A DNA stretch of 24,319 nt from a virus (lineage: Duplodnaviria; Heunggongvirae; Uroviricota; Caudoviricetes): IMG/VR virus record IMGVR_UViG_2923302340_000011, positions 1-24,319 of that record. One strand, written 5' to 3'. Shown in pieces: positions 21,001-24,000 of this stretch. How positions within the stretch are numbered: the first letter of the stretch is position 1; each line of letters starts with the position of its first letter. A program made the position numbers.

Positions 21001-24000
21001 TGCATCTCTTCGACCTGAGCAATGGCCAGCTCTTCGTCACGCATGTTCTGCATGATGATGCGACGGCGGCGGTAAGCCGGGTCCGCCAGATTCTGCGGAT
21101 CTTCATCCGGCAGGCGACGCAGGGTCATCTGCGGATTCACTTCATGCTTCGGCTTGACATATCCCGGCGTAAATTCAGAGGTGGAGCCGCCACGGGAACG
21201 GATAACCTCACCGGAAACAATCGGCGAAACGTACAGCGCCATGTTTACCAGTCCCGGAATTTGTGAGAGATAGACTTTCTCCGTGGTGAAGGGATAGCTC
21301 TCACGGAAAAAGAGACGCAGAAACAGCGGATCAAACTTAAATTTCTGCTCATTTGCCGCCAGCAGTTGGGCGGTTGTGTACATCGACATAAAAAAATCCC
21401 GTAAAAAAAGCCGCACAGGCGGCCTTTAGTGATGAAGGGTAAGGTTAAACGATGCTGATTGCCGTTCCGGCAAACGCGGTCCGTTTTTTCGTCTCGTCGC
21501 TGGCAGCCTCCGGCCAGAGCACATCCTCATAACGGAACGTGCCGGACTTGTAGAACGTCAGCGTGGTAGCTGGTCTGGTCAGCAGCAACCGCAAGAATGC
21601 CAACGGCAGCACCGTCGGTGGTGCCATCCCACGCAACCAGCTTACGGCTGGAGGTGTCCAGCATCAGCGGGGTCATTGCAGGCGCTTTCGCACTCAATCC
21701 GCCGGGCGCGGTTGCGGTATGAGCCGGGTCACTGTTGCCCAGCGGCTGGTAATGGGTAAAGGTTTCTTTGCTCGTCATAAACATCCCTTACACTGGTGTG
21801 TTCAGCAAATCGTTAACGGCATCAGATGCCGGGTTACCTGCAGCCAGCGGTGCCGGTGCCCCCTGCATCAGACGATCCAGCGCAGTGTCACTGCGCGCCT
21901 GTGCACTCTGTGGTGCAGCTGCCAGAATGCGGCGGGCCGTTTCCACGGTCATTCCGGGGGTTTCTGCCAGAACGCGCGCCTGTTCTTCGCGTCCGTGAGC
22001 CTCCTCACAGTTGAGGATCCCCATAATGCGGCTGTTTTCTGCCGCAACCGCTGCGGTGATCTGCGCGTTCACGTCCGGCTGCGCCGCGCTGGCGTTTTCG
22101 CCCTCCGTCGCTGGCACCACGTCAGTAACGTCAGCCTGCGAAGCAGTGGCTGAAACAGTTGTTGATTGAGTCTCTTTGGTCATTCGCCCTCCTGAGAGAC
22201 GGGATTTACGTGCATCCAGTGCATCACGCATGACGGTGATCGCATCGGTGCTGTTAACAAGTTCATCAGCCAGTCCGGCATCAATGGCCTCCTGACCGCT
22301 GTACACTGCAGCCTCGGTATCCAGCACAGCCTGCACGGACAGGCCGGTATATGCCGACACCTTCTGCGCAAACATCCGGCGGGTTGCATCCATCCGGGAC
22401 TGCAGTGTCTCCCGGACGTCATCCGGAAGATGGCTGTAGGGATTGCCATCCACCTTATGGCTGCCGCTGTAAATCAGCGTGATTTCCACGCCCTGTTTCT
22501 CCAGGGCAGCACCGTAATTACTGTGAGCCATCATGACGCCGATGGAGCCTGTCCGGGCGGTCTGCGTGACCAGACGCCGGGAGGCGGCACTGGCAAGCAG
22601 CTGACCTGCACTGCAGTTCATGTCGTTGGCCAGCGCCCATACCGGTTTTATGTCACGCACACGGGCGATGATGTCAGCGCAGTCAAATGCCCCCGCCACC
22701 ATTCCGCCTGGCGTGTCCATATCGAGCAGAATGCCGTCCACCATCGGGTCGCTGGCAGCCTGTTGCAGACGGGCGATAATGCCGTTGTAACCGGTCATCC
22801 CCGAGTACGGCTGCAGCGCCCGCGTCCGGCTGACCAGCGTGCCGGACACCGGCAGCACGGCGATGCCGTTCATGACCTGATAACTGCGGGCCTGTCGTGG
22901 TCCGTCATCATCACCGGATAATGCCAGCGTCGCGGGTGCCCCCTGGGCAGTCAGGCTGTCGCCGGACACCGCATCCGTCAGGCGGCTGATCCCAAGCTGG
23001 CCTGCAAGCGCACAAAAGAAAACCCGCGCATAGGCGGGTTCAAGCATCAGCGGCTCATTAAAGCCATGCTGGCAATATGCGGGAGATTACGCAGCTCTGC
23101 TGTCACTCTTCTCCTCCTCTGTTGATTGTCGCAGCCCGGATTCAAATGCCGCAGCCGCCCAGGCGGGTGGTTTAAGACCGGCTGCACGACGCTCCATCGT
23201 TTCACGGACCTGCTGGGCAAAAATTTCCTGATAGTCGTCACCGCGTTTTGCGCACTCTTTCTCGTAGGTGCTCAGTCCGGCTTCTATCAGCATCACCGCT
23301 TCCTGAACTTCTTTCAGACCATCGATGGCCATACGACCGGAGCCTATCCAGTCGCAGTTCCCCCAGGCACTGCGGGCTTCCTGAAAGCTGAAGCGCGCTT
23401 TTGAAGGTAACGTCACCACGCGGCGAACGATGGCCTCTTCCAGCCAGCACAGAAACATCTGGCTCGCCTGACGGGATGCGACGAATTTTCGCCGCCCCAT
23501 AAAGTGCGCCCACGACTCGTTCGCGCTGGCCCGTGCCGTGGAGTAGCTCATCTGGGCGTAATTCCGGGAAAGCTGCTCATACGAGACACCCAGCCCGGCA
23601 GCGATATACCGCAACAGTGACTGCTCAAAAACGGAGTAGCCGTTATCCGTGTCCTGAGCCGTCTGCAGGTTCAGTGAGTCACCCGGCATCAGGTGCGGCA
23701 CTTTTGCGCCTCCCAGCCGGACCGGTGCTGCGGCGTAATACGCGGCAATTTCACCAATCCAGCCGGTCAGCCTTTCCCGCTGCTCCTGACTGTTCGCGCC
23801 CAGAATAAAATCCATCGCTGACTGCGTATCCAGCTCACTCTCAATGGTGGCGGCATACATCGCCTTCACAATGGCGCTCTGCAGCTGCGTGTTCTGCAGC
23901 GTGTCGAGCATCTTCATCTGCTCCATCACGCTGTAAAACACATTTGCACCGCGGGTCTGCCCGTCCTCCACGGGTTCAAAAACGTGAATGAACGAGGCGC

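What the first reader, a model, noticed from the sequence alone, without database searches (positions are those of the whole stretch)
23040..23106. Protease/scaffold gene C has lost a base in its first 20 codons; only an internal ATG keeps the long ORF
The lambda-type C start (GTG 23106, overlapping the B stop by 20 nt) reads VTAELRNLPHIASMA and then hits a stop that overlaps the ATG of the 419-aa ORF (MLEPAY…). The expected …SMAFNEPLM… is restored by adding one T to the run at 23060-23062. The protease domain could still be made from the internal ATG, but that ATG lacks a clear Shine-Dalgarno. Nested Nu3 is unaffected.
Basis: partly seen in the sequence, partly recalled or inferred. Interest (0 to 1): 0.5.

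Follow-up and report, generated by a model that had tools for sequence, protein, structure and literature searches.

The report
One of six prophage head-gene frameshifts
The lambda-type protease gene C in this E. coli prophage really is missing one base, but it is only one of six single-base gaps or insertions packed into the neighbouring capsid genes, a pattern that looks more like a sequence-assembly error (or, failing that, a dead prophage) than new biology.

Summary
On the minus strand, C starts at GTG 23106, overlaps B by 20 nt, reads VTAELRNLPHIASMALMSR, and stops at TGA 23049-23047. That stop overlaps ATG 23047 of the 419-aa remainder. All 88 relatives with this site carry one more base here.

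One detail needs correcting. Lambda has the same TTT run. The missing base is most likely the second C of GCC (66 relatives); GCT TTT (22 relatives) cannot be excluded.

- D (+1 at 21568), E (+1 at 20997 and 20689) and FI (-1 at 20163 and 20153) are also frameshifted.
- All six indels are private to this window and lie within 2.9 kb.
- No private substitution accompanies them there.
- Tail genes, the B segment, integrase and dusA are intact.
- Three or four of the six indels sit exactly on common SNPs beside short base runs. The window either drops the variable base or carries both alleles in tandem.

The best reading (about 0.6) is a consensus or polishing artefact in a prophage block that is often repeated within E. 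coli genomes. The alternative (about 0.3) is a recently inactivated, capsid-defective prophage. Either way the finding is ordinary and of low interest.

The parts
23087..24319 (-). 3' part of portal gene B. It runs off the window end and is intact.
   Evidence: It is colinear with lambda B, with no private indel or substitution.
23047..23106 (-). 5' fragment of gene C: GTG 23106 with a strong SD, 19 codons (VTAELRNLPHIASMALMSR), then TGA 23049-23047.
   Evidence: SD duplex -12.0 kcal/mol.
23062..23064 (-). Site of the missing base. The window reads GGC|TTT; relatives read GGCCTTT (66) or GGCTTTT (22).
21788..23047 (-). Remainder of gene C: a 419-aa ORF from internal Met21 that contains the S49 protease domain. 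Its ATG overlaps the upstream TGA (TGATG) and has no SD.
   Evidence: It has one substitution against the L006 allele over 1260 nt.
21788..22393 (-). Nested scaffold gene Nu3 (201 codons, its own ATG at 22393), intact.
   Evidence: mapped from the lambda annotation.
21445..21778 (-). Head decoration gene D, broken by a private +1 (T) at 21568.
   Evidence: Absent from 86 of 86 relatives.
20362..21389 (-). Major capsid gene E, broken by private +1 insertions at 20997/20998 and at 20689.
   Evidence: Absent from 76 of 76 relatives.
19927..20320 (-). DNA-packaging gene FI, broken by two private -1 deletions at 20163 and 20153. The -3 at 20094 is seen against four of the five reference loci compared; L006 lacks those three bases too.

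Best explanation
The window is the late (head and tail) arm of a lambda-type prophage inserted next to dusA in an E. coli chromosome. The C frameshift is genuine in the record. It is one of six single-base indels confined to the contiguous head genes C, D, E and FI.

The most likely cause is an error in building or polishing the consensus sequence. This block is 95-99% identical among lambdoid prophages and is often present in several copies per genome, so reads from a second copy can be mixed in or polishing can fail. Where two alleles differ by a SNP next to a short base run, the difference can be represented as 'shorten one run plus lengthen the neighbouring run'. Accepting only one of the two half-supported edits leaves a net -1 or +1.

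Shown here: the indels, their privacy to this window, their clustering, and the SNP coincidence. Inferred: the artefact mechanism.

On this reading, the real phage has an ordinary 439-codon C gene.
For: 1. All six indels are absent from every one of 76-86 aligned relatives, from lambda, and from four E. coli prophages. The deletion-spanning 26-30-mer occurs nowhere in three public collections.
2. In window 24319-20000, where about 80 relatives align, there are 6 private indels and 0 private substitutions. D+E differs from the E. coli W prophage by 3 insertions and only 3 substitutions in 1461 nt. C differs from the L006 allele by 1 substitution in 1260 nt. By my recollection, natural decay gives many more substitutions than indels.
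3. All six indels lie within 2911 nt: P = 0.0036 against 12.3 kb of comparable sequence, or 1.3e-4 against the whole window. B, FII, Z, U, V, G, T, H, M, L, K, I, J, stf, int and dusA keep intact ORFs.
4. The indels coincide with common SNPs beside short runs.
   - 23063: C/T at 66:22, and the window drops the base.
   - 20997: GGC[A]G 59 versus GGC[C]G 20, and the window has GGC-C-A-G, both alleles in tandem.
   - 20153: CCCGG 43 versus CCGGG 22, and the window has CCGG.
   - 20163: lies in a multi-allelic patch.
   Common-SNP density is only 5%, and P(>=4 of 6) is about 0.001-0.017.
5. The block is often multi-copy: 4910 places in 3339 genomes, up to 7 per genome. A short draft contig of another strain (L006, 3190 bp) spans exactly window 23062-19872, as a collapsed-repeat contig would.
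6. Errors in repeat regions are known to survive short-read polishing (PMC8812927, abstract).
Against: - No reads and no second copy from the source genome are available, so the artefact is inferred rather than shown.
- Two of the six indels (+T at 21568 and +T at 20689) are not in base runs and do not sit on any SNP seen in about 86 relatives.
- A copying-model analysis shows long natural haplotype blocks (1.1-1.2 kb) and no fine-scale chimerism in this region. A crude collapsed consensus is therefore not supported.
- Frameshifted morphogenesis genes do occur in real defective prophages.
Confidence: 0.6

Rival explanations
1. The six frameshifts are real mutations. The dusA prophage is a recently inactivated, capsid-defective prophage whose C, D, E and FI are pseudogenes. 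The 419-aa ORF is just the residual open frame.
For: - The sequence as given carries them.
- C, Nu3, D, E and FI are each essential for lambda growth (PMC10695390, Table 1), so any one lesion kills virion production and later ones would be neutral.
- The closest chromosomal relatives (porcine ETEC, dusA-pspG 99.9% identical) carry a different, head-deleted prophage at the same site. Decay at this locus does therefore happen.
- Two of the indels are not explained by the SNP-artefact model.
Against: - Six private indels with no private substitution across 4.3 kb.
- Neutral hits should also fall in about 15 kb of tail genes, which are all intact (P about 1e-4 to 4e-3).
- Two -1 deletions lie 10 nt apart in FI.
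- Three or four sites coincide exactly with population SNPs.
- The allele is seen in no other genome.
Confidence: 0.3
2. The C lesion is real but functionally rescued. Ribosomes start at the strong GTG 23106, make a 19-aa peptide, terminate at UGA, and re-initiate at the overlapping AUG (UGAUG). This yields a protease lacking residues 1-20 with its S49 domain intact.
For: - The stop and start overlap as TGATG.
- The upstream start has a very strong SD (-12.0 kcal/mol).
- The S49 domain maps to residues about 81-298 of the repaired protein, outside the lost segment.
- Overlapping UGAUG stop-start coupling is a classical arrangement (trp operon junctions; from my own knowledge).
Against: - ATG 23047 has no SD (-1.9 kcal/mol, below the strand median).
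- The TGATG is accidental: CTG ATG (Leu-Met) is present in all relatives, so nothing has selected for coupling.
- The role of residues 1-20 is unknown.
- With D, E and FI broken, a working protease would have nothing to process.
Confidence: 0.05
3. Programmed -1 ribosomal frameshifting restores full-length C.
For: A -1 shift anywhere between 23086 and 23049 would rejoin the C frame (frame analysis of the sequence). The sequence T TTA ATG at the lesion is weakly slippery.
Against: - There is no canonical X XXY YYZ heptamer in the zero frame in that interval (sequence).
- None of 88 relatives needs or has a frameshift here, so no signal could have evolved.
- The five other frameshifts would each need their own recoding signal.
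Confidence: 0.01

Closest known systems
Bacteriophage lambda gene C / nested Nu3 (S49-family head maturation protease and scaffold), NC_001416 4418-5737
   Same: - About 98% nucleotide identity.
- The same GTG start with GAGGAGGAG upstream.
- The same 20-nt overlap with B.
- The same Nu3 internal start.
- A Peptidase_S49 domain.

   Different: The window lacks one base in codon 15/16 (GCC TTT becomes GC TTT). The 439-codon ORF is therefore split into a 19-codon stub and a 419-codon remainder.
Residual consensus errors in repeat regions of bacterial genome assemblies (the problem addressed by Polypolish, PMC8812927)
   Same: - Errors are indels only.
- Four of six are changes in base-run length.
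- They are confined to a block that is commonly multi-copy in E. coli.
- They are private to one record.
- They sit on sites where paralogous copies differ.
   Different: Two insertions are not run-length changes. No reads are available to prove the point, and the technology and assembly history of the source are unknown.
Defective or cryptic lambdoid prophages of E. coli (for example the head-deleted dusA prophage of ETEC4077)
   Same: A lambda-type prophage at dusA with non-functional head morphogenesis genes.
   Different: The prophages seen here were inactivated by a large deletion. By my recollection, known defective prophages generally decay through large deletions, IS insertions and accumulated substitutions. 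This window shows only single-base indels and no private substitutions.
Translational coupling through overlapping UGAUG stop-start codons (for example trp operon gene junctions; from my own knowledge)
   Same: The stop of the upstream frame shares its A with the next AUG.
   Different: Here the overlap is created accidentally by the frameshift inside one gene. It is not conserved and has not been tested.

Membership tests
Lambda gpC head maturation protease (S49) with nested Nu3 | Full-length sequence homology to lambda C and a Peptidase_S49 domain | tested here: met
   - 98.3% DNA identity to lambda across the B/C junction query 22700-23400.
- PF01343 E = 5.9e-44 at residues 150-297.
- SppA structures match residues 81-298.
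Lambda gpC head maturation protease (S49) with nested Nu3 | A GTG start with a strong SD that overlaps the end of B by 20 nt | tested here: met
   (-12.0 kcal/mol).
Lambda gpC head maturation protease (S49) with nested Nu3 | An uninterrupted ORF of about 439 codons from that start | tested here: not met
   A stop follows after 19 codons. All 88 relatives have one more base.
Lambda gpC head maturation protease (S49) with nested Nu3 | An in-frame internal Nu3 start with its own ribosome binding site | tested here: met
   ATG 22393, MDATRRMF..., duplex -6.9 kcal/mol.
Intact (virion-competent) lambdoid prophage | All essential head genes (B, C, Nu3, D, E, FI) have open reading frames | tested here: not met
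   C, D, E (twice) and FI (twice) are frameshifted. Essentiality is taken from PMC10695390.
Programmed ribosomal frameshift site | A slippery heptamer, and conservation of the frame change among relatives | tested here: not met
   No X XXY YYZ heptamer in the interval (sequence). None of 88 relatives has the frame change.
Assembly or consensus artefact | The variant is private to one record and absent from all relatives | tested here: met
Assembly or consensus artefact | An error spectrum unlike natural mutation: indels without substitutions, clustered | tested here: met
   6 private indels and 0 private substitutions in 24319-20000. Clustering P = 1.3e-4 to 3.6e-3.
Assembly or consensus artefact | Errors fall where paralogous copies differ (SNPs beside base runs) | tested here: inconclusive
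   Three sites are exact and one lies in a multi-allelic patch. Two do not fit.
Assembly or consensus artefact | Reads contradict the consensus, and a second copy of the block exists in the same genome | not testable with these tools
   The source genome and its reads were not found. The look-up of encoding contigs failed for H, J and the antirepressor.
Stop-start translational coupling (UGAUG) | Overlapping stop and start codons | tested here: met
   TGATG at 23049-23045.
Stop-start translational coupling (UGAUG) | Demonstrated re-initiation, or conservation of the arrangement | not testable with these tools
   In relatives the same letters are an in-frame Leu-Met, so there is no evidence of selection.

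The most novel reading that the evidence does not exclude
Suppose all six frameshifts are genuine. Their restriction to capsid genes, with every tail, tail-fibre and tail-assembly gene left intact, would then be non-random (P about 1e-4). It could mark a lambda-type prophage being converted into a head-less, tail-only particle producer. That would be a flexible-tail, F-type-tailocin-like element in E. coli. A truncated gpC might still be made by UGAUG re-initiation.
Probability: 0.04. Interest if true: 0.5.

Novelty: not a real feature. Interest (0 to 1): 0.08.

Why it matters
It matters mainly as a caution. A single frameshift read in isolation looked like an interesting start-site variant of a textbook gene. 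Read with its neighbours and about 90 relatives, it is one of a cluster of record-specific indels. Annotators would mark C, D, E and FI as pseudogenes and score the prophage as defective, which would be wrong if the indels are consensus errors. If the indels are real, the prophage simply cannot build capsids, which is a common and well-known state for E. coli prophages.

Tried and rejected
- **Searching for the source genome or sister isolates.**
  - The exact deletion-spanning 26-30-mers gave 0 hits in genome, viral and metagenome contigs.
  - Exact-protein look-ups of H, the antirepressor and J found nothing.
  - The 419-aa ORF was found only on a draft contig that starts just after the site, so that contig is uninformative about the lesion.
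  - No E. coli complete genome matches better than 99.3%.
- **Chromosomal neighbours.** The closest dusA alleles (porcine ETEC) carry a different prophage remnant.
- **Fine-scale chimerism test.** A copying model against 86 relatives found long natural blocks in the indel region. A crude collapsed consensus is not supported.
- **Methylation motifs.** Dcm and Dam motifs as a cause of systematic long-read errors: by eye, only one indel (20689) lies near a CCTGG, so this was rejected.
- **Programmed frameshifting.** There is no slippery heptamer and no conservation, so this was rejected.
- **Literature on the gpC N-terminus.** Medina et al. 2010 (PMID 20620152) is not held. The function of residues 1-20 remains unknown to me.

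Full report
**What is in the window**

The minus strand carries the late arm of a lambda-type prophage. The genes run in this order:
- B, which runs off the window end at 24319
- C / Nu3, D, E, FI, FII
- Z, U, V, G, T, H, M, L
- an inserted Arc-like gene and a P22-type antirepressor gene
- K, I, J and tail-fibre genes
- an integrase (1668-2765, plus strand)
- the chromosomal genes dusA and pspG

The dusA-pspG flank is 99.9% identical to porcine ETEC strains, so the host is E. coli. No record in the phage or complete E. coli genome collections matches the region around the finding better than 99.3%.

**Checking the observation**

Read directly, C begins at GTG 23106 behind GAGGAGGAG and overlaps B by 20 nt, exactly as in lambda. 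It reads VTAELRNLPHIASMA, then LMSR, then stops at TGA 23049-23047. The A of that stop is the A of ATG 23047, which opens the 419-aa ORF 21788-23047.

An alignment with lambda and mEp332 shows one missing base. Every hit listed for the phage records and E. coli genomes spans 702 nt for the 701-nt query. Of 86 aligned relatives, 85 have the extra base; the 86th is a contig that starts just past the site.

Lambda and 65 other fetched relatives read GCC TTT, with the same TTT as the window. Twenty-two read GCT TTT. The six nearest relatives over +/-600 nt all have GCC. The lost base is most likely a C.

The other claims also hold.
- The claim of no clear Shine-Dalgarno is correct. The duplex is -1.9 kcal/mol, against -12.0 for the GTG start and a median of -3.1 for all ATGs on the strand.
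- The S49 domain maps to residues about 81-298 of the repaired protein, so it lies downstream of the lesion.
- Nu3 (ATG 22393) is untouched.

**The wider context**

Comparison with lambda, four E. coli prophages and 80 IMG/VR relatives shows five more single-base indels nearby:
- +T at 21568 in D
- +1 at 20997/20998 in E
- +T at 20689 in E
- -1 at 20163 in FI
- -1 at 20153 in FI

Translation in three frames confirms that each one switches the homologous protein into another frame. All six indels are absent from every relative (76-86 of 76-86). Two other length differences are natural polymorphisms: the -12 in H, which 3 of 56 aligned relatives lack as well, and the -3 in FI, which L006 lacks as well.

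Everything else is open: the B segment, FII, all tail genes, J, stf, int and dusA. Because C, Nu3, D, E and FI are each essential in lambda (PMC10695390), the sequence as written cannot make capsids, whatever happens at the C start.

**Real mutation or artefact**

Four observations bear on this.
1. **Spectrum.** In 24319-20000, where about 80 relatives align, there are six private indels and no private substitution. D+E differs from the E. coli W prophage by three insertions and three substitutions in 1461 nt. C differs from its nearest allele by one substitution in 1260 nt. By my recollection, natural decay produces many more substitutions than indels.
2. **Clustering.** All six lie within 2911 nt. 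That gives P = 0.0036 against 12.3 kb of comparable sequence, or 1.3e-4 against the whole window.
3. **Position.**
   - At 23063 the relatives carry a C/T SNP (66:22), and the window lacks that base.
   - At 20997 they carry GGC[A]G (59) or GGC[C]G (20), and the window has GGCCAG, both alleles in tandem.
   - At 20153 they carry CCCGG (43) or CCGGG (22), and the window has CCGG.
   - Site 20163 lies in a multi-allelic patch.
   Only 5% of positions in this region are common SNPs. The chance of four or more coincidences out of six is roughly 0.001-0.017. These are exactly the places where a SNP beside a short run can be encoded as one deletion plus one insertion. Accepting only one of the two edits then leaves a frameshift.
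4. **Repeat status.** This block is commonly multi-copy in E. coli: 4910 places in 3339 genomes, up to 7 per genome. A short draft contig from another strain spans exactly window 23062-19872, the behaviour of a repeat in a short-read assembly. Errors in repeats are known to survive short-read polishing (PMC8812927).

Several points count against the artefact reading.
- The two +T insertions are not run-length changes and sit on no known SNP.
- A copying model shows long natural haplotype blocks rather than a fine chimera.
- No reads or source genome could be found.

I put the artefact at about 0.6 and genuine recent pseudogenisation at about 0.3.

**How the C start would work if it were real**

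Ribosomes loading at the strong GTG site would terminate after 19 codons at UGA, which overlaps AUG (UGAUG). Some re-initiation could follow and give gpC lacking residues 1-20. This is possible but untested, and the overlap is accidental because the same letters encode Leu-Met in all relatives. It would also be pointless with D, E and FI broken. Programmed -1 frameshifting is rejected: there is no slippery heptamer, and none of 88 relatives needs a frame change.

**Comparison with what is known, and verdict**

The gene is lambda C in every respect except the uninterrupted ORF. The lesion pattern matches residual assembly errors in repeats better than it matches known defective prophages. The one defective prophage examined here, at the same dusA site in ETEC4077, lost its head genes to a large deletion.

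The most novel reading not excluded is selective loss of capsid genes with retention of a complete tail module, giving a tailocin-like element. That reading rests entirely on the indels being real, and I give it about 4%.

Interest: 0.08.

Noticed in passing
window 21568, 20997, 20689, 20163 and 20153 (genes D, E, FI): Five further private single-base indels break D once, E twice and FI twice. Together with the C lesion they form a 2.9-kb cluster with no private substitutions.
   Followed up: yes
window 11663-13412: About 1.75 kb is inserted between tail genes L and K. It carries an Arc-like repressor gene (13021-13395, +) and a P22-type antirepressor gene (within 11737-12711, -). It is absent from lambda. 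The exact Arc-like protein is listed in 611 blocks of the contig collection, often at the same L/K position in E. coli prophages.
   Followed up: partly
window 6865-6917: There is no lom gene between J and the side tail-fibre gene. Lambda and the E. coli prophages compared all carry a 600-nt Ail/Lom gene there.
   Followed up: no
window 14858 (gene H): An in-frame 12-nt deletion in the tape-measure gene relative to most relatives. Fifty-three of 56 aligned relatives carry the extra 12 nt and the other three lack it as well, so it is a natural length polymorphism rather than part of the indel cluster.
   Followed up: partly
window 1-2765; locus L009 (NZ_CP122648.1): The prophage sits next to dusA with its own integrase. 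The strains with the most similar dusA-pspG flank (porcine ETEC, 99.9%) carry a different remnant at the same site. In that remnant the head genes are deleted and a truncated tape-measure gene lies next to a terminase remnant.
   Followed up: partly
locus L006 (GCA_012780495.1 contig DABDNB010000117.1, 3190 bp), equivalent to window 23062-19872: A short draft-assembly contig from another strain begins at the base right after the C lesion (TTTAATGAG...) and covers the whole indel cluster. Its C allele differs from the window by one base, and its D, E and FI are intact. This suggests the block behaves as a repeat bounded by the C/T polymorphic site.
   Followed up: partly
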